From NCBI GenBank assembly GCA_025057315.1, contig JANWXW010000147.1, forward strand, positions 12,420 through 76,419: a stretch of 64,000 nt of DNA, written 5' to 3'. Made by a program: the position numbers and the translations under genes. The notes under the pieces were generated by a model. It did not search any database and had not been told where the DNA came from. It worked only from the letters and a program-made list of their open reading frames with translations. Positions within the stretch are counted from its first letter, which is position 1. Each line of letters begins with the position of its first letter. The stretch is from Myxococcota bacterium. GTDB taxonomy: Bacteria; Myxococcota_A; Polyangia; Palsa-1104; JAEUJZ01. Shown piece after piece: positions 6,822 through 37,236 of the stretch.

Positions 6822-7562
6822 ATGAAGATCAAGACCACCACCTGCCGGGGTGGCTCGGCCAGCCGCCGCGCCCGCCGGGCCAGGGTGCACGGACCGGCTC
6901 GGCTGGACCTGGCCCACATCCGCGCCTGCATCGGCGAGCTGGCGACAGCGCCCAGCCGGCTGGGACTGGAGGCGCTGTGCCAGGACGACGGCCCGGAGGT
7001 GGAGGCGGTGCTGGACCCAGATGCCCTGCCGGTGGCCCGGGCCTACCTGCGCGCGCTGGCCGGGGACCCGGACGCCACACCCCAGGTGGCAGCGATCGCC
7101 CGGCGCCTGGCCGCCCGCCTGGGACAGCAGCACGAGCTGGCCGGGATCTGCGCTGCCCTGGAGCAGCTGGACCGCGACGCGGCAGACACCGACCGGGAGC
7201 TGGGCCGGCGAGAGCAGGATATGCTCGCCACCCTGGACCGGGTGCTGGGCGGGCTGCTGGACGGAACGCTGGGGAGCCTGAGCCCGGTGGAGCGGGACCA
7301 GCTGCGCGTGGAGGCCGCCGAGGTGCTGGAGCTGCAGGCGGAGCAGCGGGCGCAGCGGGAGCAGGAGCGGCGCCTGACGATCGAGGCCGGACGGGAGGCA
7401 GAGACCCTGCGCCGGGAGGCCGCCCAGGAGGCCGAGATGCTGCGCACCCAGGCCGCGCTGCGGGCCGGACGTCGCGTGGACGAGGAGGCGCTGGACCGGG
7501 CCCTGGCGACCTTCGAGCGGCTCCGGGCGGCACGGACGGGGCCACCCCCCGCCCCGCTGTGA
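6822..7562 (+). CDS. hypothetical protein (coiled-coil, Glu/Arg-rich C-terminus)
   Basis: AGGAGG RBS formed by the last unit of a 3x tandem repeat. 246 aa. Co-oriented with 5333 and 6126 (possible operon). Confidence 0.6.
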   Translation: MKIKTTTCRGGSASRRARRARVHGPARLDLAHIRACIGELATAPSRLGLEALCQDDGPEVEAVLDPDALPVARAYLRALAGDPDATPQVAAIARRLAARLGQQHELAGICAALEQLDRDAADTDRELGRREQDMLATLDRVLGGLLDGTLGSLSPVERDQLRVEAAEVLELQAEQRAQREQERRLTIEAGREAETLRREAAQEAEMLRTQAALRAGRRVDEEALDRALATFERLRAARTGPPPAPL

Positions 7563-7580
7563 GCGCGGCCGCGGCGGCCG

Positions 7581-9152
7581 CTACCCCGCGGAGTCCAGCT
7601 GCGGCACCAGCTCCACCCGATGCAGCAGCTGGCCCTCTAGCCCGCGGTGGCTGACGGTCATGATGCCCGTGCGCCCATCGATGTGCACGTGCCCAAAGTG
7701 CAGGTAGCCGGCGCTCGGCGGCAGGTTGGGCTGCGGCGGACACCGCTGGTAGAGCAGCTGCGGGCCAAAGGTGGCATCGAGCTGGTTGGGGCCAAAGGGG
7801 CCGGCATGCAGCGGGCCAGAGACGAACTCGTAGAACGGGTCAAAGTCGGAAAAGCGGGCCCGACCCGGATCGAAGCGGTGGGTGGCGGCGTAGTGGACAT
7901 CTGCGGTCAGCCACACGACGTTGTAGATGCGGTGGCGGCGGAGGAAGCTGAGCAGCTCGGCGATCTCCAGCTCGCGGCCCAGCGCCTCGGGGTCGCCCTG
8001 GGCCACGCCGTCCACCGCGGTGGCGCGCCAGCCGTCGTCGGCCACGACCAGGCCCAGGGACATGTCCGCGGCAATTACCTTCCACAGCGCCGTCGAGGTG
8101 CGGAGCTGCTGCTTGAGCCACTCGGCCTGGGCCGCCCCCAGGATGCGCGCCTGCGGGGTCAGCACGCGCTGGCGCCCCGGGGAGTTGGGCCCCCGGAAGC
8201 TGCGCAGGTCGACCAGAAACAGGTCCAGCAGCGGCCCGCGGTGAAAGACCCGATGGATGCACGGGCGGTCGGGTGGCTGGGGCGTCAGGGGCGTAAACTC
8301 GGCAAAGGCCTGCCGCGCCCGCGGCACGAGCACCTCGCAGCGCCGCTCGGTGCGGCGCGGGTCGTCCAGGACGCGGCCCGGATACCAGTTGTTGCTGACC
8401 TCGTGGTCATCCCACTGCACATACTGCGGCACCTCGGCGCAAAAGCGGCGCAGGTGCTCGTCCATGAGGTTGTAGCGATAACAGCCGCGGAAGTCCTCCA
8501 GGGTCTGGGCCGGACGGCTCTTTTCCTCGGTGACCAGGTTGCGCCACAGACCCCCGCCCGGCAGCGGCACCTGGCGCTGCAGCGGGATGTCGGCATAGAT
8601 GAGATCGCCGCTGTGGATGAAAAAGTCCGGCTGCAGCCGGCGCATGGACTCGTAGATCTTCAGGCCGCCGAAGTCGGGGTTGATGCCCCAGCCCTGGCCC
8701 ACGGTGTCGCCAGACCAGAGGAAGCTCACGCTGCGTCGGTCGCGGGCCGGGGTGCGCAGCCGTCCGTACACCGGGTCGCTCACCGGGCGCCCGGTGTGGG
8801 GGTCGAGGAAGCGGACCTCGTAGAACACCTCCTGGCCTGGGGGCAGGCCGGTGAGCACGAGCTTGGCCGTGCCGCCGCTGGCCGGGGTGGCCAGGGGGCC
8901 GAGCCGGCGCTGGGCATCTCTGAGCCGCTCGTTGGTCGCGTAGCGGACGGCCATCTGGGCGGTCCGGTCGCATGCGCTCCACAGCACGGCGCTGTCATAG
9001 GTGACATCGCCTGCCTGCACCCCCAGGGGCACCCCGCGCGCGGCCGGGGCTCCCAGCAGCCGCCCGGCCCAGGGCGGCACCAGCAGACAGCACCCGGTGT
9101 AGGCCAGGCCGGAGACGAACCGGCGGCGACCGGCATCGATGCAGCTAGACAT
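7581..9152 (-). CDS. phoD: PhoD-family alkaline phosphatase/phosphodiesterase with Tat signal
   Basis: Twin-arginine motif at the N-terminus (GRRRFVSGLAYTG). PhoD-like metallophosphatase motifs (SGDLIYAD, WDDHEV, GDVHY). 523 aa. Confidence 0.8.
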   Translation of the reverse strand: MSSCIDAGRRRFVSGLAYTGCCLLVPPWAGRLLGAPAARGVPLGVQAGDVTYDSAVLWSACDRTAQMAVRYATNERLRDAQRRLGPLATPASGGTAKLVLTGLPPGQEVFYEVRFLDPHTGRPVSDPVYGRLRTPARDRRSVSFLWSGDTVGQGWGINPDFGGLKIYESMRRLQPDFFIHSGDLIYADIPLQRQVPLPGGGLWRNLVTEEKSRPAQTLEDFRGCYRYNLMDEHLRRFCAEVPQYVQWDDHEVSNNWYPGRVLDDPRRTERRCEVLVPRARQAFAEFTPLTPQPPDRPCIHRVFHRGPLLDLFLVDLRSFRGPNSPGRQRVLTPQARILGAAQAEWLKQQLRTSTALWKVIAADMSLGLVVADDGWRATAVDGVAQGDPEALGRELEIAELLSFLRRHRIYNVVWLTADVHYAATHRFDPGRARFSDFDPFYEFVSGPLHAGPFGPNQLDATFGPQLLYQRCPPQPNLPPSAGYLHFGHVHIDGRTGIMTVSHRGLEGQLLHRVELVPQLDSAG

Positions 9153-9158
9153 CCTACC

Positions 9159-10359
9159 CTATAGTGTAGCGCGTCTAGCCGCCAGCTCATCCAGCCGCTG
9201 CGCCACGGCGCGCGGGCTGAGGGTGCCCTTGTAGACATACAGGGCCGCCGGCAGGTGGTCGGGCAGGGCCTCCTGGCTGACGCGCAGCCGGCTGCTGAGG
9301 CAGAACAGCACCGGCTCGCGCAGCCCGCGCTCCACCAGCTCGATCCGCCGCCACACCGCCTCGCGGCTCCAGTAGCCGAGCACCTCCAGGTGGATGCGGG
9401 GCCCGTCCGGGCGCTCAAAGAGCAGGTCGGGCACGCACACGCCCACCCCGGGCAGGTGGAGCAAGGCCGGGGCCAGCTGGACCTGCCACGGGGTGCCCAG
9501 CGCGGGGAAGGCGCGCAGCAAGGCCTCCACCTCCTGGGGCAGCGGTGCCTCGGGCTGGTCCGCACCGGGGCCCTGTCCCTGGACGTGCAGCTGCAACGGC
9601 TGCCGCTCCTTGCCCCAGCGCACCTGGGCCGTCAGGCAGAAGCGATCGCAGGCCAGCAGCGCGGGCAGCGCCAGGGCCAGCTGGAGGCCATAGCGGGTCA
9701 CCGAATCGAACAAGCTGTAGGGGCCGTCCAGCTCGATGCGGTAGGCGCCGTCCTGGGCGGGGTGGATGCGAAACAGCAGGCGCAAAAACTTCAGCCAGCG
9801 GAACAGCTGGCGGTAGGTGGCGGCGCGGGCGCACTCGACCTCGACCACCACGCGCACGGCGCGCAGCAGCACGGCCTGCACCTGCGCCAGGTCGTAGCTG
9901 TCCACCAGGGCCTCGGCGGTCAGCGGCTCTAGGTCCACCAGCACGTGGGCCTCCCGCAGGTCGGCATACAGGCTGCGTAGCAGCGCCGCCGGATCCAGAC
10001 CGTGGGAGGCGGCCACCTCGGCCAGGATCTGCTCGCGGTCGAAGACGCCCTGCTGCCGTGCCGCCGCCGCGCGCAGAAACACCTCGCTGCGCAGCCTCTC
10101 GGGCGAGGGCCCCTGGGCTACGTCGAACCGACAGCGGTCCTCGATGAGCTTGCGCAGCCCCTCGGCCAAGCGCTGCTCGCGCGGGGCATACGCGACCTGG
10201 CCCAGCGCCTCCTGCAGCTCCTGACGGGTGCGGCCCAGGTGGGCGCGGGTGATCTCCAGGTAGGCCGCGGCCAGCTCCAGGGCACGGGCGCGCAGACGGG
10301 CATCCAGCGGCAGCACGTGCAGCTGGCCCGCCCGTCGATCCACCCGCACGCGCACCAGC

Positions 10360-10373
<14 letters not shown>
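9159..10373 (-). CDS. DUF790 / Bax1-like endonuclease (XPB-associated nuclease family)
   Basis: 404 aa, TTG start overlapping the XPB stop by 14 nt. The C-terminal region (LEVLGYWSREAV) resembles the Bax1 nuclease core. It is a partner of the adjacent XPB-like helicase. Confidence 0.5.
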
Positions 10374-11729
<1,356 letters not shown>

Positions 11730-11777
11730 TCTCAGAGGGGGGCGGGACCAGCGCGTGGTCTTTGCCGGCGCTTGTAG

Positions 11778-11889
11778 CAGAAGCGGGCCGCCGCCGCCAG
11801 GCCATCAGAGCGGGATCGACCCGCTGCGGGGCGCTGTGCACCTCCATCTTGATCGCCGAAGCGGGCCGCCGCCAGGCCATCAGAGCGGG
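11778..11889. repeat. two copies of a ~35-45-nt imperfect direct repeat (GAAGCGGGCCGCCGCC[GCC]AGGCCATCAGAGCGGG) with a 77-nt period. The second copy contains the stop codon of the GspE-like gene.
   Basis: Read directly from the sequence. Also visible as the duplicated LMAWRRPASA in the shadow ORF. Confidence 0.6.
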
Positions 11890-13616
11890 CAGGCGGCGCG
11901 GACCTCGCCCAGGTCGGTCAGGCCCTCTAGGGCCTTGGCGATGCCGTCCTGGCGCAGGGTGCGCATGCCGTCCTGACAGGCCTGGGCGTGCAGCTCGTTG
12001 ACTGGGGCGCGCCCCCGCAGCAGCCGGCGCAGCGCCGGGCTGCCCTGCAACAGCTCGTGCAGCGCCAGGCGCCCCTGAAAGCCGCTCCCCTGGCAGATCT
12101 CGCAGCCCACCGGGCGGTACAGGGGCGCATCCGGTGCCACGCCCAGCTCGGCCAGGCCAGGCTCGCCGTACTCGGCGGCCAGGGCCCGCCACTCCGCCTG
12201 CTGCAGCTCGTAGGGCTGCAGGCACGCCTCGCACAGCTTGCGCACCAGGCGCTGGGCCAGCACGCCGAGCAGCGCAGTGCCTAGGTGGTCGGGATCGCCC
12301 CCCAGCTCCAGCAGGACCTGCAGCGCCTCGGCCGCCCCGTGCGCGCGCAGCCCGGCCAGCACCAGATGCCCGCTCAAGGCTGCCTCCAGGGCCGCCCCAC
12401 AGGCCTGCCGGTCGCGCAGCTCGCCGATCATGATCACGTCGGGATCGGCCCGCAGCAGGCCGCGCACCGCGGCCGGCACGTCCAGGCCCGGCTGCAGCGA
12501 CACCTGGCGCAGTCCGGGCTGGACCCGCTCCACCGGGTCCTCGACGGTGCCAATCATCCGGTCGGGGCGATTGAGGTGGTTCAGGGCCGCATGCAGCGTG
12601 GTGGTGCGCCCTGAGCGGGGCGGACCCGCAACGAGCAGCAGCCCCCAGGGCCGCTCCAGCAGCTGCTGCAGGCCCACCAGGTTGCGCTCAGAGAACCGAA
12701 GCTGCTCCAAGGTCGGCGGCTGGCCGCCGGGCAGCACATGCAGCACCACGTCCTGCAGGCCGCCGTGCAGCGGCACGGTGGCCACCCGCAGCACGATGTC
12801 GCTGCCACCCTCGCGGCGGATGCGCAGCATCCCCTGGCGAGGCAGCGTCTCGTCCTGGGGCTCCAGGCTGCTCAGGCTCTTGATGCAGGACAGCATCGGC
12901 GGGTGGTACTCGGCGGGCAGGGTGCGGAACGGCCGCAGCCGACCATCCAGACGCAGGCGGACCTGAACCGGCCCCTGCTCGGCCGAAGGCTCGATGTGGA
13001 TGTCGGTGGCGCCGCGCTCGCAGGCCTCGCCGAGCAGGCCCGCCACCAGCGCGACCACCTGGTCCTCGTCCGGGGGCGGCTCGCGCACCTCCTCGATGAC
13101 CACCTCCACCGAGGGCTCCTCGGGCACCGGCTCGGTCGCCGGGGTGGCCGCCGGCGGGCTGGCCGCGGTCCCGTAGAGGTGCCCGTAGAAATGATCGATG
13201 AAGGCCTCGATGTCCTCGCGCAGGCCCACGCAGTACTCAATCTGCATCCCGGGCAGCAGCGCGCGCACCTCATCGCGCTTGATAAGGTGGTTGGGGTCAT
13301 CGATGAGCACCGTCACCCCATGGTCATGGGCCTTGATGGGCACCCAGCGATCCGTGCGCAGGTAGCCGGGCTTGAGGCTGCGCAGCACCGCCCGCGGCGG
13401 CGGCAGGCGGGGGTCAAAGGGAACATAGGGGCAGCCGTAGTAGTGGGCCAGCGCCGCGCCGATGTGGGCCTTGGGCACCCGGAAGCGCCGCATCAGGACC
13501 TGCTCGACGTCCAGCTGGAGCTCCTGGGCCTCGGCAGCGGCTTGGAGCAGATCCGCCTCGTTGATCAGCCCCTGCTCGATGAGCAGGTCGAACTTGGTGC
13601 GGATGCTCGCGGTCAT
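11880..13616 (-). CDS. GspE/PilB-family secretion-type ATPase homologue with degenerate nucleotide-binding motifs
   Basis: N-terminal GspII_E_N-like domain. Walker A reads GPPRSGRTT instead of the usual GPTGSGKTT. Asp box DPDVIMIGELRD is intact. His box is degraded (LAGLRAHG). Tetracysteine motif present (CEAC...CEIC). Confidence 0.8.
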   Translation of the reverse strand: MTASIRTKFDLLIEQGLINEADLLQAAAEAQELQLDVEQVLMRRFRVPKAHIGAALAHYYGCPYVPFDPRLPPPRAVLRSLKPGYLRTDRWVPIKAHDHGVTVLIDDPNHLIKRDEVRALLPGMQIEYCVGLREDIEAFIDHFYGHLYGTAASPPAATPATEPVPEEPSVEVVIEEVREPPPDEDQVVALVAGLLGEACERGATDIHIEPSAEQGPVQVRLRLDGRLRPFRTLPAEYHPPMLSCIKSLSSLEPQDETLPRQGMLRIRREGGSDIVLRVATVPLHGGLQDVVLHVLPGGQPPTLEQLRFSERNLVGLQQLLERPWGLLLVAGPPRSGRTTTLHAALNHLNRPDRMIGTVEDPVERVQPGLRQVSLQPGLDVPAAVRGLLRADPDVIMIGELRDRQACGAALEAALSGHLVLAGLRAHGAAEALQVLLELGGDPDHLGTALLGVLAQRLVRKLCEACLQPYELQQAEWRALAAEYGEPGLAELGVAPDAPLYRPVGCEICQGSGFQGRLALHELLQGSPALRRLLRGRAPVNELHAQACQDGMRTLRQDGIAKALEGLTDLGEVRAACPL

Positions 13617-13655
13617 GGGTCCCTGGGCAGCCCTGGGGCTCGAGGCAGCCGGGTG

Positions 13656-15158
13656 TCATTGTAACGCGGTTTGCGGGCGGTCGGTGGGCCCGATGACGGG
13701 AGCTGAGGGAGGCCGAGGGTCTTGGAGGGCGGCCGCCGCAGCACCGCCCCTGGGCGATGAACCATGGGGGCGGGCCTCCTGCTGGAGCGGGCCGTAGACG
13801 TAGACGCCGCGCTGCTGGCCCAGCAGCTGGTAGCGGGCGCGCGCCACGGCGAGGACCTCGGGCAGGAACCGCTCGTCGTGGCCGCCGCCGGGCGGCTCCT
13901 CCAGCGGGAAGTGCAGCACCAGGCGCTCGATCTGGCCGGCCCTCAGCGCCCGCAGCAGGGGCGAGGGATCCCACTGTCCCCGGCGCGCCAGGTTGGTGGC
14001 GAGGAAGGGCACGACCACCGGCGGCCGGCCCAGCGCGGTGGTGTACCAGGTGGACTCGGCCAGCACCGGACCCGAGCGGCCCTGCAGCTGGGCGCGGGTG
14101 TAGGCCATCTGCTGGCGTACCCCGGGCAGGCGCACCAGGGCCAAGTAGGCCGCCCCCCCGACGGCCATGCAGCAGGTGACCAGCAGGTGCAGCAGCACCG
14201 CACGCCGCCACCAGCAGCCTGCCATGGCGATGGTAAGATGCAGGCACATCGCCGTCAGCAGCTCCATCGTGTGGTTGGAGCCCGAGCCGCACCGGCCCAG
14301 CACCAGCGTCCAGGGCAGGCCCACCAGCAGCGCGCCGGCAAAGGGCCCGAGCACCTGCCGGGTGTGCGCCGGCAGCTGGGCCCAGCGACCTAGCAGCCGC
14401 ACGGCCACCGCGAGCCCGGCCCCCCAGGGCAGCACGAAGCGGGCGCACTGGCTCAGAAAGAACAGCGGGCTCCAGTCCGCCATCGTCCACAGGACCAGGG
14501 GGGCGAACAGGCCCTGGCGCCACAGGAGCCACCCGACCAGGCCCGCGGTGCCCAGGGCCAGCACCAGGCCCTGCCGGGGGGCCCGCCGCAGCGCCCAGGC
14601 CAGGGTGCCCAGCGGCAGGACCACCAGGCTGTGCTTCATCATGACCGCGGCCACAAAGGCCACCGGCGCCAGCAGGGGCCAGCCGCGCACCCGCAGCGCC
14701 ACCAGGGTGATGCCGCCCAGGCCCAGGGCCAGAGCGGGCGCATCGGGCAGGCAGGTGGCCGCATGGTAGGAGACAAACAGCGTGCCGCCCAGCAGCAGGG
14801 CCGCCACCCAGCCGAGCAGGCGCGAGCCGGTGGCGGCATGGGCACAGGCACCCAGCAGGGCCATGGCCAGCACAAAGCCGGCCAGGGACACCACCCCACC
14901 GGTGCGCACGATCTCGCTGTCCGAGGGGGCGAGCGCTGCCACCAGGTGTAGAAACAGGGGCGGATAGTTGGACTGCCACAGGGGCAGGCCGGTCGGCTCA
15001 GTGTATAGATTATAGCCTCGGCGGAGCAGCCAGATCCAGGTGGCGGTGTCTCCCTCGGCATAGCTGAGCGGCACCCGGCCGCCCAGGGTGATCAGCCACA
15101 GCAGGGCACAGGCGAGGAAGCTGGCGACGATAAGGGCAAGGTGAAACCGGGGCACCAT
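13656..15158 (-). CDS. polytopic membrane protein, GT-C-type glycosyltransferase-like (DUF2029/GT87-like)
   Basis: Start ATG 15158 (MVPRFHL). More than 10 predicted TM helices. YPPLF loop motif after TM1. Large C-terminal soluble domain. Confidence 0.5.
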   Translation of the reverse strand: MVPRFHLALIVASFLACALLWLITLGGRVPLSYAEGDTATWIWLLRRGYNLYTEPTGLPLWQSNYPPLFLHLVAALAPSDSEIVRTGGVVSLAGFVLAMALLGACAHAATGSRLLGWVAALLLGGTLFVSYHAATCLPDAPALALGLGGITLVALRVRGWPLLAPVAFVAAVMMKHSLVVLPLGTLAWALRRAPRQGLVLALGTAGLVGWLLWRQGLFAPLVLWTMADWSPLFFLSQCARFVLPWGAGLAVAVRLLGRWAQLPAHTRQVLGPFAGALLVGLPWTLVLGRCGSGSNHTMELLTAMCLHLTIAMAGCWWRRAVLLHLLVTCCMAVGGAAYLALVRLPGVRQQMAYTRAQLQGRSGPVLAESTWYTTALGRPPVVVPFLATNLARRGQWDPSPLLRALRAGQIERLVLHFPLEEPPGGGHDERFLPEVLAVARARYQLLGQQRGVYVYGPLQQEARPHGSSPRGGAAAAALQDPRPPSAPVIGPTDRPQTALQ

Positions 15159-15447
15159 GGGTTGCGCGTGCGGTTGGCAGGCAGGGCGCAGCTGGGGCCC
15201 GTGCCCATGCCGCAGGAGCAGCAGCTGACATCGCGTGCCGGACCACGTGGGGGGCTTGCTACGCATCGAGCGGGGCCGTCGGCGGCCATGCGCGCCAAGA
15301 AGCAAGATGCCAAGGAGCAAGATGCGTACCCGGAGCAGGTTGCGGCCCTGCCTCGAGGGGCCAGCGGGGGGCGCTGTCGAGTTTTCACCGCTGCAGACGG
15401 GGGCTGTGGACGTGCCGGGCCGGGGTCGGGCTTGCTAAGATGGCCCG

Positions 15448-16842
15448 ATGCGGGTTCGGCTGCGCGGGGCGGGCCCTCTGCTCCGACCGTTCTTTGCCAT
15501 CTTGATCACGTGTGGGCTGCTGGCCTGGTTCTGCAGCCGCGACGAGGAGGCCAGGCGGGCGATGCTGCGCGTGCGCGACACGGCGTCGCTGGTGCGCGAG
15601 GCGCCGACGCTGCTGTGGCCGCCGTGGCGGGCGCTGCGGCTCTACGTCTCGATCGACGACGACGTGAGCCTCTACTATGAGCTGTCGCGGGTGGTGTTGG
15701 GGGAGGCGGCGGACGCCGAGCAGATGCTGCGGTTTGACCACCGGCCGGATCCGGCCGAGGTGGCGGCGCTGCGGGCGCGGCTGGCCCAGGCGCGCGGCAG
15801 GCGGTGGCCGACGGGCCTGCAGCTGGGCTTCCCGCCGCTGTCGGTCCTGCTGATGGTGCTGCCGCGGCTGGCCGTGGACACGCTTGGGGCGTACCGGGTG
15901 GCGTTTGCGGTCCTGCTGGCCCTGCTGTACCTGGGGGCGTGGGGGGTGGCCGTGGCGGGGGCGGCAGGCCTGCCCCGGCGGGTGCTGTTGGGACGGATGG
16001 CGCTGGTGACGGCCTGCATGGGGCCGGTGCTGGTTGCCCGGCTGGATGTGCTGCCCGCGCTGCTGGTCGTCGCGGCGCTGGGGGCGCTGGCGCGGGGGTG
16101 GGCGCTGGCAGCGGGGCTGCTGCTGGTGCTGGGGGGGGCGGCCAAGCTCTACCCGTTGTTTTTGCTGCCGGTGTGGGCGGCGCTGCTGTGGGGCTGGGGG
16201 GGGGCGGCGCGCCGCCAGGCGGTGGCGCTGCTCGGTGGGCCGGCACTGCTCGGCGGGCTGGGCCTGCTGCTCGGCGGGCTGCCAGCGCTGGGGGAGCACC
16301 TGCGGCTGTTTGCCCGGCGGCCGGTGCAGATCGAGTCGGTGGTCGGGGCCGTGCTGCACGCTGCGGGCTGGCCGAGCGACTATGGGTTTGGCTCCAACAA
16401 CCTGCTGCTGCCCCCGTGGGTGCCCATGGCGCTGGACGGTCTGCTGGGGGGGGCGGTGCTGGCCCTGGCGGCCGGGGCAGGGCGGTGGGCGGCGCGGCAC
16501 CGCGATGGAGCGGCGCGGCGGCAGGCGCTAACCTGGTTTGCGGTGGCGACGGTGCTGGTGGTCATCACGACGAGCAAGGTGCTGTCGCCCCAGTATCTTG
16601 TCTGGCTGGTGCCGCCGGCGGCGATGCTGCCAGGCAGGGCCGGGCGCCTGGTGCTGCTGGGGGTGTGCGCGGCGATGTTGCTGACGCAGGTCTACGTGCC
16701 CTTTATGTACAGCTGGCTGATGGAGCGGCGGTGGCCGCTGCTGCTGCTGGTGCTGGTGCGCAACGGCCTGCTTGTGGGGCTGGCCGCGGGGGTGCTGGGC
16801 GTCCTGGTTCGCTCAGGGCGCCGGGACGAGGCCCTCGCGTAG
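15448..16842 (+). CDS. polytopic membrane protein, DUF2029/GT87-like glycosyltransferase
   Basis: 464 aa, multi-TM. AKLYPLFLLP motif. Paralogous architecture to 13656..15158, divergently transcribed. Confidence 0.5.
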   Translation: MRVRLRGAGPLLRPFFAILITCGLLAWFCSRDEEARRAMLRVRDTASLVREAPTLLWPPWRALRLYVSIDDDVSLYYELSRVVLGEAADAEQMLRFDHRPDPAEVAALRARLAQARGRRWPTGLQLGFPPLSVLLMVLPRLAVDTLGAYRVAFAVLLALLYLGAWGVAVAGAAGLPRRVLLGRMALVTACMGPVLVARLDVLPALLVVAALGALARGWALAAGLLLVLGGAAKLYPLFLLPVWAALLWGWGGAARRQAVALLGGPALLGGLGLLLGGLPALGEHLRLFARRPVQIESVVGAVLHAAGWPSDYGFGSNNLLLPPWVPMALDGLLGGAVLALAAGAGRWAARHRDGAARRQALTWFAVATVLVVITTSKVLSPQYLVWLVPPAAMLPGRAGRLVLLGVCAAMLLTQVYVPFMYSWLMERRWPLLLLVLVRNGLLVGLAAGVLGVLVRSGRRDEALA

Positions 16843-18216: not shown

Positions 18217-19978
18217 TTAGTCTTTGGCGTATGTTTCGCTGTCCCAGATGTGCTGGGGGTTGTCCTCGCGGCGGATGCAGTAGTCGCCCATGATGAGATA
18301 GTCGATGCCGGTGCCCATCATGCAGCGGTAGGCATCCAGGGGGGTGCACACGATGGGCTCACCGCGGATGTTAAACGAGGTGTTGACCAGCATCGGGACG
18401 CCTGTGCGTCGGCCGAAGGCGCGGATGGTATCGTAATAGAGCGGGTTGTTCTCCCGGCGGATGGTCTGCAGGCGGCCCGAGTCGTCCACGTGGCGCACGG
18501 CGGGCAACCGGTCGCGGTGGGCAGGCCGGATGGGGTAGACCATGAGCATGAAGTCACAGGGTGCGGGCAGCGGCGAGTCGCACTCGAAGTAGGTGTCGGC
18601 GTCCTCGGCGCACACGACGGGGGCGAAGGGGCGAAACCGCTCCCGGTGCTTGACCTTTTCGTTCAGGATGTCGCGCATCCGGGGGTTGAGCGGGTTGGCC
18701 AGGATGCTGCGGGCGCCGAGCGCGCGGGGGCCCCACTCCATGCGGCCCTGCATCCAGCCCACCACGTGGTCCTCGGCCACCAGGCGCGCCGTGGTCTCGA
18801 CGATCTCCTCGTCGCTGCGCAGCCGCTGGTAGCGGACGCCGTTCTGGTCCAAAAACGCGCCGATCTCGGCGGAGGAGAAGCTGGGGCCGAGGTAGGGGCT
18901 GCTTAGGGTCCAGTGGCGGGGCCGGCCCAGCAGGGTATGGTAGATGTAGGCCGCCGCGCCGATGCTGGTACCGGCGTCGCTGGCATTGGGCTGGATCCAG
19001 ACCCGGCGGAAGGGGGTCAGGCGGAGGATTTTGCCGTTGAAGACGCTGTTGAGCGCCACGCCACCCGCCATAACCAGGTTGTCGCAGCCGGTTTCGCGGT
19101 GCAGGTGGCACAGCATGCGACAGAGCACGTCCTCGGTAAGGAGCTGCACGGCCGCGGCGATGTCCTGCAGGCGCGGGGTCATGACCGAGTCGGGCGGCGC
19201 CGCTGGTCCGCCGAGCAGGTCACACAGCTTCTGCGACGGCATGCGCTCGGCATAGTGGTAGCAGAAATAGGACATGTCCAGGCGCAGACTGCCGTCCTCG
19301 CGCACCTGGACGACGTCGCGCAGCCGGGCATAGAAGGGGTTGGTGGCCCGGTCGCGGTTGCCATAGGCGCTCAGGCCCATCACCTTGTACTCGGAGTTGT
19401 TGACGCTGAAGCCGAGGTAGGCGGTGATGGTGGAGTAGAGCAGGCCCAGCGAGTGGGGAAAGCGGATGTCTTTGCGCAGGTGAATGCGGGTGCCCTCGCC
19501 GATGCCATAGGAGGCGGTGGTCCATTCGCCCACGCCGTCCACGGTCAGGATGGCAGCGCGCTCGAACGGGCTGACCAGGAAGGCGCTGGCTGCATGGGCC
19601 ATGTGGTGCTCCAGAAACAGCACGCTGCCGCGGTAGCCCAGGGCCTTGCGCAGCGTCCGGCGCAGCCGGATCTTTTCGTTCAGCCAGGACGGCAGCGAGG
19701 AGACAAAGGTCCGGTAGCTGCGCGGAAAGGACTCCAGGTGCTGACACAGCACGCGCTCGAACTTGAGCAGCGGCTTCTCGTAAAAGCCAATGTAGTCCAC
19801 ATCTTGGATGCGCAGGCCCTGGCTCTCTAGACAGTAGCGGATGGCGTGGATGGGGAACGACTGGTCGTGTTTGATGCGGGTAAAGCGCTCCTCTTCGGCA
19901 GCGGCGACGATGACACCGTCGCGCAGCAGGGCTGCTGCTGCGTCGTGGTAGTGGCAAGAGACGCCCAAGATGTTCATG
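18217..19978 (-). CDS. carbamoyltransferase, NodU/CmcH (HypF-like) family
   Basis: Start ATG 19978 (MNILGVSCHYHDAAAALL). Conserved N-terminal ASKHA-like and C-terminal YrdC-like carbamoyltransferase regions. About 587 aa. Confidence 0.85.
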
Positions 19979-19979
19979 G

Positions 19980-20510
19980 CTAGTACTGGCGAAAATAGGC
20001 ATCCAGCGAGCGCGCCTCTAGGTCGAGGTCCTGCCAGAACGTCTCCTTGTCGGGAGCCGGGGCCAGGTCCAGGAAGCGTCGGCGCAGCAGGCGCGCCACC
20101 AGCGCGGTGGGTCCCAGGGCGCCAAAGTAGATGATGGTCAGCAGGATCGCGTTGACGCCTAGGGCCACGTGGCGGCCGAAGGTACGCATGCCGTGCAGGA
20201 GGCTGCGCCAGAGCGGGCCTGCGCCGTCGTCCCGCGGCCGGCCTGGCAGCAGCCGCAGGGCATTGAGCAGCAGCACCACGCCCATCCCGCCCAGGATGTG
20301 GGGGATGCCGACGTGCTCGCGTACCAGCGCCACCTTGCGCGAGAGCATGTGGTGGGTCAGCAGCGCAAACACAAGCAGACCGAGGTGGTAGCCGACCAAC
20401 GCACCCACGCGGCCCGGCGGCAGCCGGTCCCCTGGGGGGCTGGGGGACGGGCTGGACCAGACGGACCGCAGGGGCGGCGGGGTGGCAGCAGGCGCCGTGG
20501 GCAGCCTCAT
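19980..20510 (-). CDS. SxtJ-like small membrane protein (hypothetical)
   Basis: Three predicted TM helices. Position immediately upstream of the carbamoyltransferase matches the SxtJ-like family context. Start uncertain. Confidence 0.4.
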   Translation of the reverse strand: MRLPTAPAATPPPLRSVWSSPSPSPPGDRLPPGRVGALVGYHLGLLVFALLTHHMLSRKVALVREHVGIPHILGGMGVVLLLNALRLLPGRPRDDGAGPLWRSLLHGMRTFGRHVALGVNAILLTIIYFGALGPTALVARLLRRRFLDLAPAPDKETFWQDLDLEARSLDAYFRQY

Positions 20511-20540
20511 GGACGGGTCTCTCCCCCGCTCGGCCAGGGC

Positions 20541-21737
20541 CTAGCCTTCGGCGGCCATGCGGGGTACAGGCTTGCCCAGCTGGATGACGGCAGGTCCTGT
20601 CCACCGCCGTAGGGGGGCCAGACCGGCCGACCTTGCGCAGCGCTCCTGCGCCATTTGGTAGACCCGTTCATGCCGCCAGATGACCTCATCCCATGCAAAG
20701 CGGTCGAGATCAAGTTTGGCCTCCTCGGCCATGCGATGCCGCAGCTCGGCATCGCACAGCAGGCGGACGATGTAGTCGATAAATTCCTCCCAGGTGTCGG
20801 CCAGAAACCCGTGCCGGCCGTGCACCAGCGCATCGCTGACCCCGCCGTGGTTGCGCGCCACGACCGGCAGGCCAACGCAGCGCGCCTCCAGGGTGGCGAT
20901 GCTCAGCGCCTCCTTGATGGTGGGCAGGACAAAGAGCGCAGACCGCGCCAGGATGTGCTTGATCTCCTGCCTGGACAGCAGGCCTGGCAGCTCCAGCAGG
21001 TCCTCAACGCCCAGCCGATGGGCCTCCCGCTCGACCCGTGGCCGCTCGGGGCCGTCTCCCACCAGCGTGAAGCGCGGACAGATGCCGGGGGGCAGACGGC
21101 GCATAATCTCCGGGATGGCGCGGACAAAGTCGGTGGGCCGCTTGCGGCGGGTAAAGCGCATCACGCTGGTGACGCGCAGCTCTGAGGTGGGTGGCCGCTG
21201 CACTCGCCAGGCGTCCAGGTCGATGCCGTTGGGCAGCACGACGATGTCGTCTCGGCGGTAGATGCGGCGCTGTTCCTGCACCACGTACCGGCTGACGCCG
21301 GACAGGACGTCTGGGCGGCCCAGCCAGCCTGACACCGAGTCCAGCAGACGCAGCAAAGTACGCTGGCCGCGCAGCACCGAATGCTCGGTGACCACCGACG
21401 GGATGCCAAGGCGGCGCGCGACGTGGACACCGCCGATGGCCAGGGGCGATAGGCCGGCGTGACAGTGCAGCAGGTCGAAGCGCTCCCGGCGCACGATCTC
21501 CTCCAGCACGTCGAGGGCACGGCGGTTGGCGATGGTTCGCAGCACGGGCAGCAAGGGAACCCGCAGCCGGTGCACGGGGAAGCCATCCTGCCCGGGTGGC
21601 CCCGGCGTGGCGGTGATGACGTGGGCCTCATGGCCGCGCCGGGTGAGCTCACGTGCCAGGTCGCGCATGTGCAGCTCCAAGCCGCCCACCCGGGGCAGGT
21701 ACCAGTCGCTGACCAGAGCTATCTTAAGGGACGGCAC
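20541..21737 (-). CDS. glycosyltransferase family 1 (GT-B, GT4-like)
   Basis: 398 aa. N-terminal GT4 domain (LVSDWYLPRVGG). C-terminal Glycos_transf_1 motif (EALSIATLEARCVGLPVVA, the E-x7-E region). Confidence 0.85.
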   Translation of the reverse strand: MPSLKIALVSDWYLPRVGGLELHMRDLARELTRRGHEAHVITATPGPPGQDGFPVHRLRVPLLPVLRTIANRRALDVLEEIVRRERFDLLHCHAGLSPLAIGGVHVARRLGIPSVVTEHSVLRGQRTLLRLLDSVSGWLGRPDVLSGVSRYVVQEQRRIYRRDDIVVLPNGIDLDAWRVQRPPTSELRVTSVMRFTRRKRPTDFVRAIPEIMRRLPPGICPRFTLVGDGPERPRVEREAHRLGVEDLLELPGLLSRQEIKHILARSALFVLPTIKEALSIATLEARCVGLPVVARNHGGVSDALVHGRHGFLADTWEEFIDYIVRLLCDAELRHRMAEEAKLDLDRFAWDEVIWRHERVYQMAQERCARSAGLAPLRRWTGPAVIQLGKPVPRMAAEG

Positions 21738-35604: not shown

Positions 35605-37071
35605 TCAGAGAGCTCCCAAGACCTCGCTGCAGCCAGGCTCGCGCACGCCATAGCGGGGGAAGGCCACCTGGGCCCGCTCCCCGTCCAGTTCTAGGCGCAC
35701 AAAGCCGTGGCCGCGGCCGTTGCGGCGCCAGGCAAACGTGGTGTGCGCGGCCGCCTGGGCCGTGATCAGGGCCGCCAGACCGGCGATCTCGCGAGGGCAC
35801 GGGGACACATCGCGGGCGGGCCAGCGCTCAAAGCGCAAGCCCCGGGGCCCGGGCCGCGCCTCGTGCAGATCGGCCCAGTGGGTGTGGCCGGACAGGTGCA
35901 GCACCCGCAGCCCTGCTGCTGCCCCGTCGAGCAGCAGCTGTTCGAACCCCTGCGCCCCAGTGCGCATGCGGCCGAAGAAGCCGCGTCCGGTCCGCCCCCC
36001 GCTCGACAGCACGTGAGCCCGTGGTGGCGCATGGCTGAACAGCACCACGCCGCGGCGTCCCTTCTGCCGCGCCCGGTCTAGCGCACTGCGCATCCGCTCC
36101 AGCGTCTCGGGGAGCAGGCCACGGGTCAGGATGCGAAACGAGGGCACGCTCGGTCCGCTGTCGAAGCCGATGAAGTCCCAGCCGCCCAGCGTCACGGTGA
36201 ACAGCGGGTAGGGATGGAAGCCGCGGGCGAAGGTCAGGTACCCTTTGCTGCTACCCGTGCCGAACAGCGCCTTGGGCCCAAAGCCGTGGTCATGGTTGCC
36301 TGGCACCACCAGCAGGGGCGCTTGGATGCGCAGCAGCATCTGCTGGGCCCGCCGCAGCTGCGCCCCGTTGCCGCCCCGATCGACCACGTCGCCGGTGATG
36401 AGGACCACGTCGGGCCGCAGGGCGTTTACATCGGCCAACACGCGTTCCAGGTTCTGCTCCAGACGACGCTGGTGGCGCTTGCCGATGTGGATGTCGCTGA
36501 GCTGGACAACACGCAGCGGCCGTGGCAGGGTCGGGTCCTGGGCGAGCAGCCACACAGCATGGGGGGCCCGCTCCGGCGGGTGAGCACCGGATGCGAAGTA
36601 AAGATCGTAGCCCCCCGGCGGGGGCAAAGAGAGCGGCCGGGCAGACAGGCGCACGCGCCGCAGGTTGTCTGCGATGGCCTCCCTCGCCTCAAGCAGGAGC
36701 TCCAGCGCGTGGCAGCCATCCCGCGATGCCTCGCCCTGCAGGCAGCGCGCAGCTTGCTCTGCCGACCAGTTTGGCCGTGTCAGCACGGCGCGCCAGGGCG
36801 CTGGCCGGCCCCGCTCTAGTACCTCCACAACGAACGGCGCGCCGGCCTGCACCACTGCTGGATAGCCCAGCCGGGGGCGCAGCAGCAGCGCATCGCGGCC
36901 GGGATCTGGATCGGTCTCTGCTGGTGCAAAGCGCCTGTAGCTGGCGACCAGTTCGCGGAGCATGCGGCCTTCTGCCAGCGGCACCGGAGGGGCGCAGGCC
37001 CCAGCAGCCAGCACAAGAGGCAACCAGCACCGGTGCAGGCAGCGCATGGGGGGCCGCTGCCAAGCATCCAT
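35605..37071 (-). CDS. calcineurin-like metallophosphoesterase lipoprotein
   Basis: Start ATG 37071 (MDAWQRPPMRCLHRCWLPLVLAAGAC: signal peptide plus lipobox). MPE motifs (VQLSDIHIG, ITGDVVDRG, GNHDH). Confidence 0.75.
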   Translation of the reverse strand: MDAWQRPPMRCLHRCWLPLVLAAGACAPPVPLAEGRMLRELVASYRRFAPAETDPDPGRDALLLRPRLGYPAVVQAGAPFVVEVLERGRPAPWRAVLTRPNWSAEQAARCLQGEASRDGCHALELLLEAREAIADNLRRVRLSARPLSLPPPGGYDLYFASGAHPPERAPHAVWLLAQDPTLPRPLRVVQLSDIHIGKRHQRRLEQNLERVLADVNALRPDVVLITGDVVDRGGNGAQLRRAQQMLLRIQAPLLVVPGNHDHGFGPKALFGTGSSKGYLTFARGFHPYPLFTVTLGGWDFIGFDSGPSVPSFRILTRGLLPETLERMRSALDRARQKGRRGVVLFSHAPPRAHVLSSGGRTGRGFFGRMRTGAQGFEQLLLDGAAAGLRVLHLSGHTHWADLHEARPGPRGLRFERWPARDVSPCPREIAGLAALITAQAAAHTTFAWRRNGRGHGFVRLELDGERAQVAFPRYGVREPGCSEVLGAL

Positions 37072-37236
37072 CCCCCTCCGGCGCCTGGCAAACCACCCTC
37101 TGGCCCGTGTCCGACTCGGCCGGCGGTCTTCTCGCCCGTCAGCAGGGGACCCGCCTTGGTTGCACGGTACGTACCTGCAGAGCAACTCCGCCATCACCAC
37201 GGACATGCAGCAGGGGGCCTCCTGGGTTGCAGGGGG

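What the first reader, a model, noticed from the sequence alone, without database searches (positions are those of the whole stretch)
7581..13616. Operon-like run: degenerate GspE-like ATPase, XPB helicase, Bax1/DUF790 nuclease and Tat-exported PhoD
**Seen in sequence:** Four co-oriented minus-strand genes with 7-nt (PhoD/Bax1), -14-nt (Bax1/XPB overlap) and about 150-nt (XPB/ATPase, filled with direct repeats) spacing.

**Established knowledge:**
- XPB and Bax1 form a helicase-nuclease pair in archaea and some bacteria.
- PhoD is a periplasmic phosphodiesterase.
- GspE/PilB ATPases normally power T2SS/T4P.

**Inference:** A cytoplasmic helicase-nuclease repair pair flanked by a secretion-ATPase pseudo-enzyme and an exported phosphodiesterase is unusual. 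Two readings are possible: coincidental packing, or a nucleic-acid processing/defence or DNA-uptake-related module (the pseudo-ATPase as a regulator, PhoD degrading extracellular nucleic acid).
Basis: partly seen in the sequence, partly recalled or inferred. Interest (0 to 1): 0.65.

Follow-up and report, generated by a model that had tools for sequence, protein, structure and literature searches.

The report
XPB-Bax1 repair pair with chance neighbours
The four genes are real and tightly packed, but only the XPB helicase and Bax1 nuclease form a conserved module; the exported phosphatase sits beside them in just one other related lineage and the crippled secretion-type ATPase in none, so the run is mostly ordinary gene packing.

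Summary
Four co-oriented minus-strand genes are present:
- PhoD-like phosphatase with a twin-arginine signal, 7581-9152
- Bax1/DUF790, 9159-10373
- XPB, 10360-11730
- MshEN-T2SSE ATPase, 11880-13616, with a degenerate Walker A (GPPRSGRT) and no His-box histidine

The gaps are 6, -14 and 149 nt.

Conservation does not support a four-gene module. In 160 XPB-Bax1 loci from Myxococcota genomes and metagenomes, XPB sits directly upstream of Bax1 in nearly all. PhoD follows Bax1 in 0 of 117 loci with enough flank. A related ATPase precedes XPB in 0 of 99. The three nearest full-length Bax1 relatives also have other neighbours.

There is one exception. Contigs L092/L093, from a syntenic relative, carry Bax1 overlapping PhoD, so that adjacency is lineage-specific and inherited.

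The ATPase is an orphan. The 64-kb window has no T2SS or T4P partner genes, and its nearest relatives have other neighbours where these can be seen.

Each unit has its own AT-rich -10-like element. The one before XPB is conserved across Myxococcota. No defence-system model matched beyond generic helicase similarity, and the window is core chromosome.

Verdict: a known helicase-nuclease cassette with incidental neighbours. Low interest.

The parts
7581..9152 (-). PhoD-like metallophosphatase with a twin-arginine (Tat) signal motif (GRRRFVSGLAY, residues 8-18).
   Evidence: Pfam PhoD 3.4e-80 and PhoD_N 1.7e-18. It aligns to B. subtilis PhoD 2YEQ with the GDxIY, WDDHEv.NN and DVH motifs kept. It scores far below the NCBIfam PhoD equivalog cut-off, 74 against 1000 bits. 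The RRRF motif is conserved in homologues L092, L098 and L096.
9163..9170 (-). AT-rich -10-like element (GCTACACT; TACACT at -16..-11 from the PhoD ATG), embedded in the last codons of Bax1.
   Evidence: Read directly from the sequence. Five of the last six Bax1 sense codons end in A or T, although AT3 for the whole gene is 0.084. L092 has TAAAAT at -17..-12 in the same position. PhoD homologues in unrelated contexts also carry a -10-like hexamer at about -20..-13. Promoter function is inferred, not shown.
9159..10373 (-). Bax1/DUF790 nuclease, the partner of XPB.
   Evidence: Pfam DUF790 7.3e-84 over positions 1-386 of 387. PDB matches are archaeal Bax1 chains 6P66_B and 6P4F_B. D316 and E330 align to AfBax1 D305 and E318, which PMC7293015 gives as nuclease active-site residues. 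The start overlaps the XPB stop by 14 nt.
10360..11730 (-). XPB-type SF2 helicase (456 aa).
   Evidence: Pfam XPB_DRD 8.7e-15, ResIII and ERCC3_RAD25_C. E = 1e-105 to AfXPB (2FWR/6P66_A), aligned over residues 27-452. Walker A PTGAGKT and DECHH are present. The RED motif reads RSD.
11771..11814 (-). Repeat copy 2, which is the XPB promoter-like region and contains TGCTACAAG (11771-11779, 49 nt upstream of the ATG).
   Evidence: It aligns with the XPB upstream regions of the nearest relatives L091 and L088: TGGCGGCGnCGnCC...TGCTA.AAG. TGCTA occurs in 28/74 XPB upstream regions against 1.1% of background windows.
11846..11889 (-). Repeat copy 1, a duplicate of the XPB upstream segment. It overlaps the last two codons and the stop of the ATPase. 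Its -10-like part is degenerate (GGCGATCAAG).
   Evidence: There are 2 matches in the window against 0 expected. An independent assembly (GCA_033578775.1) ends at window position 11794, inside copy 2.
11880..13616 (-). Orphan PilB/GspE-like protein (MshEN + T2SSE) with a degenerate Walker A (R337 in place of Lys, nt 12606-12608) and a His box lacking His (R424, nt 12345-12347).
   Evidence: Pfam T2SSE 9.6e-79 and MshEN 2.2e-12. Motif comparison with the 40 closest homologues and with PilF 6F8L. The nearest relatives are only 53% and 51% identical.
13658..13663 (-). -10-like hexamer TACAAT, 42-47 nt upstream of the ATPase ATG. It overlaps the rare terminal codons TTA CAA TGA of the upstream gene.
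   Evidence: ATPase homologues L004 (TATAAT at -15..-10) and L003 (TACGAT at -20..-15) also carry one. Promoter function is inferred.
13656..15320 (-). Co-oriented upstream gene: a multi-pass membrane protein with no Pfam hit. It forms a divergent pair with ORF6 (15448-16842, +).
   Evidence: The pair is conserved in L092 at 53% and 49% identity. In L092 it lies on the PhoD side of the XPB-Bax1-PhoD block rather than the XPB side, which shows an inversion between the two genomes.

Best explanation
The run consists of three independent units that happen to be packed head to tail on a core-chromosome segment of a Myxococcota MAG.

(1) XPB-Bax1 is the only conserved functional module. It is a two-gene cassette with a 14-nt stop/start overlap. 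By homology to the archaeal complex, XPB opens or translocates on DNA and positions the Bax1 PD-(D/E)xK-type nuclease to cut at a single-strand/double-strand junction. The cassette appears to have its own extended -10-like promoter (TGCTA...), which is conserved across Myxococcota.

(2) PhoD is a Tat-exported PhoD-family phosphatase, presumably for phosphate scavenging. It became the downstream neighbour of Bax1 in one narrow lineage. It probably keeps its own promoter inside the 3' end of Bax1, though some read-through from XPB-Bax1 is possible.

(3) The MshEN-T2SSE protein is an orphan, catalytically compromised PilB/GspE paralogue with its own -10-like element. It abuts XPB only in this genome. 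The junction carries a 44-nt duplication of the XPB promoter region, which looks like the scar of a local rearrangement.

Shown: gene identities, motif states, spacing, and the conservation counts. Inferred: the promoters, the transcription units, and the biochemical roles.
For: XPB-Bax1 as the conserved unit:
- XPB lies immediately upstream of Bax1 in essentially all 80 genome loci and in 75/80 metagenome loci; the few loci lacking an XPB match have Bax1 near a contig end.
- Its neighbours are highly variable. The largest neighbour family occurs in only 9 of 80 loci.

PhoD:
- Downstream of Bax1 in 0/69 and 0/48 loci.
- Absent next to the three closest full-length Bax1 relatives, which have a methyltransferase, an RCC1-repeat gene or a histidine kinase instead.
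- PhoD homologues P0246, P0257 and P0243 sit in unrelated contexts.
- Bax1-PhoD adjacency is kept only in L092/L093, a syntenic relative in which the block is inverted relative to the ORF5mem-ORF6 pair.

ATPase:
- A related copy upstream of XPB in 0/61 and 0/38 loci.
- Its 51% homologue is followed by a different ORF (L004).
- The window has no GspF/PilC or other T2SS/T4P genes.

Promoter-like elements:
- TGCTA in 28/74 XPB upstream regions against 1.1% background, peaking at -15..-19. The window's copy is conserved with L091 and L088.
- AT-rich hexamers with rare codons lie at the ends of Bax1 and ORF5mem, with matching elements in L092, L098, L003 and L004.

Context:
- PADLOC gave only generic helicase hits for XPB and nothing for the other proteins.
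- The window holds core genes: hrcA-grpE-dnaK-dnaJ, a D-3-phosphoglycerate dehydrogenase (serA-type) gene, an RND efflux system, tilS and ftsH.
Against: - No intrinsic terminator was found in any of the three junctions, so read-through across all four genes cannot be excluded.
- The 6-nt gap in the window and the 17-nt overlap in L092 between Bax1 and PhoD are typical of co-transcribed, even translationally coupled, genes.
- That adjacency survived an inversion between two lineages that are only about 60-66% identical in protein sequence. This is more than random packing would predict.
- The promoter calls rest on short AT-rich motifs, and some of the motif definitions were derived from the sites themselves.
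- Upstream of XPB in the L092 organism is unseen because the contig starts inside Bax1. The ATPase contig from the same sample (L003) ends 29 nt after the ATPase stop. ATPase-XPB adjacency in that relative is therefore neither shown nor excluded.
Confidence: 0.78

Rival explanations
1. XPB-Bax1-PhoD is a genuine lineage-specific three-gene operon with a shared function. One version: under phosphate limitation or DNA damage the cell couples DNA processing to phosphate recovery. Another: PhoD dephosphorylates or degrades extracellular nucleic acid while XPB-Bax1 handles incoming or damaged DNA.
For: Bax1 and PhoD are 6 nt apart in the window and overlap by 17 nt in L092/L093. The adjacency is retained although the block is inverted relative to the ORF5mem-ORF6 pair. 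No terminator lies between the two genes.
Against: - The adjacency is absent from 117 other XPB-Bax1 loci with enough flank, and from comparably close relatives.
- In sample DRR438492 a 61% PhoD homologue follows a P450 gene, while the XPB-Bax1 contig from the same sample is followed by an RCC1-repeat gene.
- PhoD is Tat-exported and XPB-Bax1 is cytoplasmic.
- A -10-like element precedes PhoD at the same distance in both lineages and in unrelated contexts.
- Close PhoD homologues (55-63% identity) occur in several other phyla with unrelated neighbours.
Confidence: 0.1
2. All four genes form a nucleic-acid defence or DNA-uptake module. The degenerate ATPase acts as a regulator or sensor, possibly through its MshEN domain, XPB-Bax1 acts as the effector, and PhoD acts outside the cell.
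For: The genes are co-oriented and tightly spaced. The XPB helicase core resembles the helicases of Pbe and Dnd restriction systems (PbeA 3.8e-52, dnd_restrict_1 2.3e-39). The ATPase is catalytically degenerate, as pseudo-enzyme regulators often are.
Against: - No PADLOC model matches Bax1, PhoD or the ATPase. The XPB hits cover only the helicase core.
- The ATPase is found next to XPB in no other locus, 0 of 99.
- Its 51% relative (L004) has a different downstream gene; the other relative's contig (L003) ends too soon after the ATPase stop to tell.
- The surroundings are housekeeping and envelope-biosynthesis genes, with no integrases, transposases or other defence genes.
- The ATPase/XPB junction carries a duplication that looks like a rearrangement scar, and it contains XPB's own conserved promoter-like element.
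Confidence: 0.03
3. The ATPase-XPB adjacency is an assembly artefact, a misjoin through the 25-nt exact repeat in a MAG contig.
For: An independent assembly of the same population (GCA_033578775.1, contig JAVQWY010000030.1) ends at window position 11794, inside repeat copy 2. The exact ATPase product is on record from only one contig.
Against: Both repeat copies are present, separated by 43 nt of unique sequence. That is what a real tandem duplication looks like; a collapsed misjoin would leave a single copy. The repeat occurs nowhere else in the window. GC content and codon bias are uniform across the junction.
Confidence: 0.07

Closest known systems
Archaeal XPB-Bax1 helicase-nuclease complex (A. 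fulgidus 6P66, S. tokodaii 6P4F/6P4O; Rouillon & White 2010; DuPrez et al. 2020, PMC7293015)
   Same: The gene pair is the same and is adjacent. XPB has a DRD domain plus two RecA-like helicase domains and matches AfXPB at E = 1e-105. Bax1 is a full-length DUF790 protein in which D316 and E330 align to the AfBax1 nuclease residues D305 and E318.
   Different: The host is a bacterium (Myxococcota). The RED motif reads RSD here and RxD across the clade. The second acidic residue of the N-terminal Bax1 site (Af E135) is Arg here. The archaeal Bax1 NCBIfam equivalog cut-offs are not reached (108 and 95 bits against 500). No biochemistry exists for this clade.
Bacterial DUF790 co-occurring with ResIII/helicase genes (Steczkiewicz et al. 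2012, PMC3424549), and mycobacterial XPB (PMC3353954)
   Same: The helicase plus DUF790 pairing in prokaryotes is already noted in the literature. XPB also exists and is active in a bacterium.
   Different: The 2012 M. tuberculosis paper states that no XPB-Bax1 complex had been identified in bacteria at that time. The window's XPB is far below the NCBIfam XPB equivalog cut-off (216 against 610 bits), while it matches archaeal XPB structures strongly.
PilB/GspE/PilF secretion and pilus-assembly ATPases with MshEN domains (e.g. T. thermophilus PilF 6F8L, M. xanthus PilB 3JC8)
   Same: The domain order is the same: MshEN, N-terminal domain, then the T2SSE core. The Asp box, Walker B (DPDVIMIGELRD) and the tetracysteine motif are all kept.
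   Different: The Walker A Lys is Arg and two further P-loop residues are changed. The His-box His is Arg. No partner platform, pilin or secretin genes occur within 64 kb. The protein belongs to a small clade (P0001, P0002, P0007) that lacks the His-box His.
B. subtilis PhoD (2YEQ), a Tat-exported phosphodiesterase/alkaline phosphatase
   Same: It has the PhoD_N and PhoD domains, a twin-arginine signal motif, and conserved metal-site motifs.
   Different: The match to 2YEQ is only remote (E = 2.7e-20). It is far below the NCBIfam equivalog cut-off (74 against 1000 bits). The stretch aligned to the 'ASC' segment of 2YEQ reads 'SGD' here. From memory, and not checked here, that cysteine is a metal ligand in B. 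subtilis PhoD. The substrate is unknown.

Membership tests
XPB (SF2 helicase, ERCC3/RAD25 family) | N-terminal damage-recognition domain (DRD) | tested here: met
   Pfam XPB_DRD scores 54.8 bits against a cut-off of 26, over residues 7-64.
XPB (SF2 helicase, ERCC3/RAD25 family) | Helicase motifs I (GxGKT) and II (DExH), plus the C-terminal RecA-like domain | tested here: met
   PTGAGKT and FDECHH are present. ERCC3_RAD25_C and Helicase_C hits. The alignment to AfXPB has few gaps over residues 27-452.
XPB (SF2 helicase, ERCC3/RAD25 family) | RED motif | tested here: inconclusive
   The motif reads RSD, aligned to the RED of AfXPB. Across 75 Myxococcota XPBs the motif is RxD, with RED in only 2. 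The Arg and Asp are kept and the Glu is not.
XPB (SF2 helicase, ERCC3/RAD25 family) | NCBIfam equivalog score (NF045503) | tested here: not met
   216 bits against a cut-off of 610. The protein matches archaeal XPB structures strongly but does not reach this curated threshold.
Bax1 (DUF790 nuclease, XPB partner) | Full-length DUF790 domain | tested here: met
   282 bits, positions 1-386 of 387.
Bax1 (DUF790 nuclease, XPB partner) | Acidic nuclease triad (AfBax1 E275, D305, E318) | tested here: met
   D316 and E330 align to D305 and E318 and are invariant in the 32-sequence alignment A2. The first Glu is either E281 (nearly invariant in A2) or E283, because the alignments differ by two residues there.
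Bax1 (DUF790 nuclease, XPB partner) | Encoded next to XPB | tested here: met
   A 14-nt overlap in the window. The same arrangement holds in nearly all of the 160 related loci.
Bax1 (DUF790 nuclease, XPB partner) | Forms a complex with XPB and cleaves DNA | not testable with these tools
   This needs biochemistry.
GspE/PilB secretion or pilus ATPase | T2SSE core with Asp box, Walker B and tetracysteine motif | tested here: met
   Pfam T2SSE 265 bits. TVEDPVE, DPDVIMIGELRD and C462/C465/C505/C508 are present.
GspE/PilB secretion or pilus ATPase | Walker A lysine (GPTGSGKT) | tested here: not met
   The motif reads GPPRSGRT, with Arg at the Lys position. Most of the 40 closest homologues I inspected have GPTGSGKT.
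GspE/PilB secretion or pilus ATPase | His-box histidine (TLHTN) | tested here: not met
   The motif reads GLRAHGA. The histidine is also lost in the two nearest relatives, P0002 and P0007.
GspE/PilB secretion or pilus ATPase | Genomic partners (GspF/PilC platform protein, pilins, secretin) | tested here: not met
   No T2SS/T4P family was found among about 30 window ORFs scanned against Pfam, which cover most of 3.8-52.6 kb.
PhoD-family Tat-exported phosphatase | PhoD_N and PhoD metallophosphatase domains | tested here: met
   67 and 270 bits.
PhoD-family Tat-exported phosphatase | Twin-arginine signal peptide | tested here: met
   The RRRFVSGLAY motif is followed by a hydrophobic stretch. It is conserved in L092 and L098. 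This is by motif inspection only; no signal-peptide predictor was available.
PhoD-family Tat-exported phosphatase | Orthology to B. subtilis PhoD (NCBIfam NF058638) | tested here: not met
   74 bits against a cut-off of 1000.
Anti-phage defence system (PADLOC models) | Component proteins match the models of one system | tested here: not met
   Only XPB hits helicase-containing models (PbeA, mREase_IV and others), over its helicase core. Bax1, PhoD, the ATPase and five neighbouring proteins have no hit.
Conserved operon (four genes) | The same gene order recurs in related genomes | tested here: not met
   ATPase in 0 of 99 loci and PhoD in 0 of 117 loci. The Bax1-PhoD adjacency recurs only in L092/L093.

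The most novel reading that the evidence does not exclude
In this narrow Myxococcota lineage, XPB-Bax1-PhoD has become a real co-transcribed unit, and possibly the His-box-less MshEN-T2SSE pseudo-ATPase is part of it too. Such a unit would link a cytoplasmic helicase-nuclease to an exported phosphatase, for example for phosphate-starvation-driven DNA turnover or handling of extracellular DNA, with the degenerate ATPase acting as a nucleotide- or c-di-GMP-sensing regulator. The Bax1-PhoD adjacency survives an inversion between two diverged genomes. ATPase-XPB adjacency in the second genome could not be seen either way, because both relevant contigs end at the critical junctions.
Probability: 0.07. 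Interest if true: 0.5.

Novelty: new member of a known kind. Interest (0 to 1): 0.2.

Why it matters
It matters little as a system. The result shows how a striking-looking run (repair helicase-nuclease, secretion-ATPase pseudo-enzyme, exported phosphatase) reduces to one known two-gene cassette plus incidental neighbours once neighbourhood conservation is counted.

Three points are modestly useful:
- XPB-Bax1 is a widespread, invariant two-gene cassette in Myxococcota. It has a conserved extended -10-like, often leaderless-type, promoter signature. No bacterial XPB-Bax1 complex appears to have been characterised biochemically, so this clade is a candidate for that work.
- A small clade of orphan PilB/GspE-like proteins has lost the His-box histidine, and here also the Walker A lysine. 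These are candidate pseudo-ATPases.
- The Bax1-PhoD adjacency is an example of a lineage-specific gene juxtaposition that persists through an inversion.

Tried and rejected
- PADLOC scan of nine proteins. Only generic helicase hits for XPB, so the defence reading was rejected.
- Sigma-70 and terminator consensus scan of 7000-15600. No promoters by the two-hexamer rule. Seven terminator-like sites, all inside genes and none in a junction, so the scan is uninformative for operon structure.
- Contexts of the ATPase's nearest homologues (L003, L004). The contigs are too short. L004 shows a non-XPB ORF downstream; L003 ends 29 nt after the stop.
- Exact look-up of the ATPase product: not on record.
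- Homology between the L003 upstream fragment and the window's ORF5mem or orf246, to reconstruct the rearrangement: none found.
- Possible link between the window's ORF5mem and GDSL genes and the PMT_2 and GDSL genes near XPB-Bax1 in L091: no sequence similarity, so this is coincidence.
- MshEN c-di-GMP motif, inspected by eye. The hydrophobic and Gly positions fit, but the leading 'RLG' reads 'TKF'. Left undecided.
- Structure prediction, fold search and the representative-protein search were not used. Sequence matches to solved structures already settled the identities.

Full report
**1. What is there**

The region has about 72-75% G+C. Reading frames were assigned by third-position GC.

- PhoD-like phosphatase, 7581-9152, 523 aa. 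Pfam PhoD 3.4e-80 and PhoD_N 1.7e-18.
- Bax1/DUF790, 9159-10373, 404 aa, TTG start. Pfam DUF790 7.3e-84 over the whole model.
- XPB, 10360-11730, 456 aa. Pfam XPB_DRD, ResIII, ERCC3_RAD25_C and Helicase_C.
- A PilB/GspE-like protein, 11880-13616, 578 aa. Pfam MshEN and T2SSE 9.6e-79.

The long ORF 10360-12234 is not the XPB gene. The homologous N-terminus MSAIALDF... begins at the ATG at 11730.

Spacing is 6 nt (Bax1 to PhoD), a 14-nt overlap (XPB/Bax1) and 149 nt (ATPase to XPB). A fifth co-oriented gene, a multi-pass membrane protein without Pfam hits (13656-15320), ends 39 nt before the ATPase start.

**2. State of the proteins**

XPB matches Archaeoglobus fulgidus XPB (2FWR/6P66_A) at E = 1e-105 over residues 27-452. 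It has PTGAGKT and DECHH. The RED motif reads RSD, and across 75 Myxococcota XPBs the motif is RxD.

Bax1 matches the archaeal Bax1 structures. D316 and E330 align with AfBax1 D305 and E318. PMC7293015 names these, together with E275, as the nuclease-domain metal site. The first Glu is E281 or E283, depending on the alignment. Both D316 and E330 are invariant in a 32-sequence alignment.

PhoD aligns remotely with B. subtilis PhoD (2YEQ) and keeps the GDxIY, WDDHE and DVH motifs. It scores 74 bits against the 1000-bit NCBIfam PhoD equivalog cut-off, so it is a PhoD-family enzyme of unknown substrate. Its N-terminus carries RRRF followed by a hydrophobic stretch, and this motif is conserved in homologues.

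The ATPase keeps the Asp box, Walker B and the four zinc-motif cysteines. Its P-loop reads GPPRSGRT where most of the 40 closest homologues I inspected have GPTGSGKT. Its His box reads GLRAHGA instead of TLHTNSA. Its only near relatives are P0002 (53%) and P0007 (51%). They keep the Walker A lysine but also lack the His-box histidine. All other hits are 46% identical or less and are canonical, usually carrying an extra GAF or TPR domain. 'Degenerate GspE-like ATPase' is therefore correct.

**3. Is the run conserved?**

I built a Bax1 alignment (A2) and fetched 80 loci from species-representative genomes, all Myxococcota-type MAGs. I fetched 80 more from metagenomes. I then searched them with the window's proteins.

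- XPB lies immediately upstream of Bax1 in essentially every genome locus, mostly with the same short overlap, and in 75/80 metagenome loci. The few loci lacking an XPB match have Bax1 near a contig end.
- PhoD occurs in 0 of 69 and 0 of 48 loci that have at least 1.7 kb downstream of Bax1.
- A relative of the ATPase occurs in 0 of 61 and 0 of 38 loci that have at least 2 kb upstream of XPB. Only three distant (31-32% identical) T2SSE genes were seen, each several kilobases from the XPB-Bax1 pair.
- The neighbours of XPB-Bax1 are very variable. The largest neighbour family occupies 9 of 80 loci.
- The three closest full-length Bax1 proteins in the 5.8-billion-protein collection (61-62% identity; their XPBs are 78-81% identical) have other downstream genes: a methyltransferase (10-nt gap), an RCC1-repeat gene and a histidine kinase. 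Where the upstream side is visible (L088, L091), the gene before XPB is also unrelated.

**4. The exception**

The best PhoD homologue is P0242 (66% identity; the next best is 61-63%). It lies on contigs L092/L093 directly after a Bax1 C-terminal fragment (60% identity), and the two genes overlap by 17 nt.

The same contig carries homologues of the window's ORF5mem (53%) and ORF6 (49%), so it comes from a syntenic relative. There, Bax1-PhoD points towards ORF5mem, with a PhoD paralogue and a methyltransferase in between. In the window the block points away from ORF5mem, with the ATPase in between. The Bax1-PhoD adjacency is therefore inherited within a narrow lineage and has survived an inversion.

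It is not general, even at this phylogenetic depth. In sample DRR438492 a 61% PhoD homologue follows a P450 gene (L098), while the XPB-Bax1 contig from that sample is followed by an RCC1-repeat gene. Two further PhoD homologues sit beside thiamine-biosynthesis genes and nitrile-hydratase genes.

Whether the ATPase precedes XPB in the L092 organism cannot be seen. L092 starts inside Bax1. The ATPase contig from the same sample (L003) ends 29 nt after the ATPase stop. The other ATPase relative, L004, is followed by a different ORF.

**5. Signals in the junctions**

No intrinsic terminator lies in any junction, and the two-hexamer promoter scan found nothing.

Comparison of the 200 nt upstream of XPB in 74 loci shows TGCTA in 28 of 74, against 1.1% of background 75-nt windows. 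The occurrences peak sharply at 15-19 nt before the start codon. That is the geometry of an extended -10 element driving a leaderless or near-leaderless mRNA.

The window has TGCTACAAG at 11771-11779, 49 nt upstream of the ATG. This sits in a segment that aligns with the XPB upstream regions of its nearest relatives. The segment is copy 2 of the spacer repeat. Copy 1 (11846-11889) overlaps the last two codons and the stop of the ATPase, and its -10-like part is degenerate. The junction therefore looks like a duplication scar from the event that brought the ATPase next to XPB.

An independent assembly of the same population ends inside copy 2, at window position 11794. For that reason I keep a small probability that the join is an assembly artefact.

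Upstream of PhoD, the last Bax1 codons (GCT AGA CGC GCT ACA CTA TAG) are strikingly AT-ending for a gene whose AT3 is 0.084. They form TACACT at -16..-11. L092 has TAAAAT at -17..-12, and PhoD homologues elsewhere have similar hexamers.

Upstream of the ATPase, the rare codons TTA CAA TGA at the end of ORF5mem form TACAAT. L004 has TATAAT and L003 has TACGAT before their ATPase genes.

These are sequence inferences. Part of the motif definition came from the sites themselves. Only transcript mapping can settle the transcription units.

**6. Context**

The window is ordinary chromosome. It holds tilS and ftsH (via L001), a beta-lactamase-fold gene, and an envelope glycan or lipid cluster (GDSL, carbamoyltransferase, GT4, radical SAM, MMPL). 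It also holds a D-3-phosphoglycerate dehydrogenase (serA-type) gene, hrcA-grpE-dnaK-dnaJ and an RND efflux system.

There are no T2SS or T4P partner genes, no integrases or transposases, and no defence genes. PADLOC matched only the helicase core of XPB, to PbeA, type IV restriction and similar models.

**7. Conclusion**

XPB-Bax1 is a known kind of helicase-nuclease cassette. [quoted passage not shown] A 2012 paper noted that no such complex had then been identified in bacteria (PMC3353954). By homology to the archaeal complex, the mechanism is XPB-driven DNA opening with Bax1 incision at the junction. This is inferred, not tested here.

PhoD is a lineage-specific downstream neighbour. It probably has its own promoter, and some read-through from XPB-Bax1 is possible. 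The degenerate ATPase is an orphan paralogue whose adjacency to XPB is unique to this genome so far.

The module or defence reading is not supported for the ATPase, and for PhoD it remains only a low-probability lineage-specific possibility.

Noticed in passing
XPB upstream regions of L005-L091; window 11771-11779: TGCTA (an extended -10-like TGnTAnnnn element) occurs in 28/74 Myxococcota XPB upstream regions against 1.1% of background windows. It peaks sharply at -15..-19 from the start codon, which suggests that XPB-Bax1 is commonly expressed as a leaderless mRNA.
   Followed up: partly
L016:3-3260 (-) and 7 other loci: A 1086-aa fusion protein (Toprim + Topoisom_bac + DEAD + Helicase_C, i.e. 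a type IA topoisomerase fused to a helicase) lies upstream of XPB on the opposite strand in 8 loci, immediately adjacent in 6 of them. A His_Phos_1 phosphatase lies co-oriented upstream in 8 others, for example L015:684-1622.
   Followed up: no
window 11771-11889: The 44-nt imperfect duplication of the XPB promoter-like segment supplies the last two codons and the stop of the ATPase gene. The independent assembly GCA_033578775.1 breaks inside it, at window position 11794.
   Followed up: partly
window 13656-16842; L092:4452-7357: The divergent pair ORF5mem and ORF6 (a multi-pass membrane protein and a 464-aa protein, neither with a Pfam hit here) is conserved in L092 at 53% and 49% identity. 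The ORF6 homologue there has a weak GT87 hit, so the pair is probably envelope glycosyltransferases next to the GDSL/carbamoyltransferase/GT4/radical-SAM/MMPL cluster.
   Followed up: no
P0001, P0002 and P0007 (window 11880-13616; L003; L004): A small clade of MshEN-T2SSE proteins lacks the His-box histidine. Only the window's member has also lost the Walker A lysine. All three carry a -10-like hexamer upstream of their start codon.
   Followed up: partly
L092:2178-3677 (-): A second, divergent PhoD paralogue (about 29% identical to the window's PhoD) lies convergent to PhoD in the relative that keeps the Bax1-PhoD adjacency.
   Followed up: no
window 18217-20604 (-) and 19980-20510 (-): The carbamoyltransferase ORF as listed (795 aa, GTG start) has its Pfam domains starting only at residue 212. 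It also overlaps a separate high-GC3 ORF at 19980-20510. The true start is probably further downstream and the upstream part is probably a separate small gene.
   Followed up: no
window 35605-37206 (-): Another secreted-type phosphoesterase candidate (Metallophos, 533 aa) lies about 26 kb from PhoD. It is unrelated to the run.
   Followed up: no
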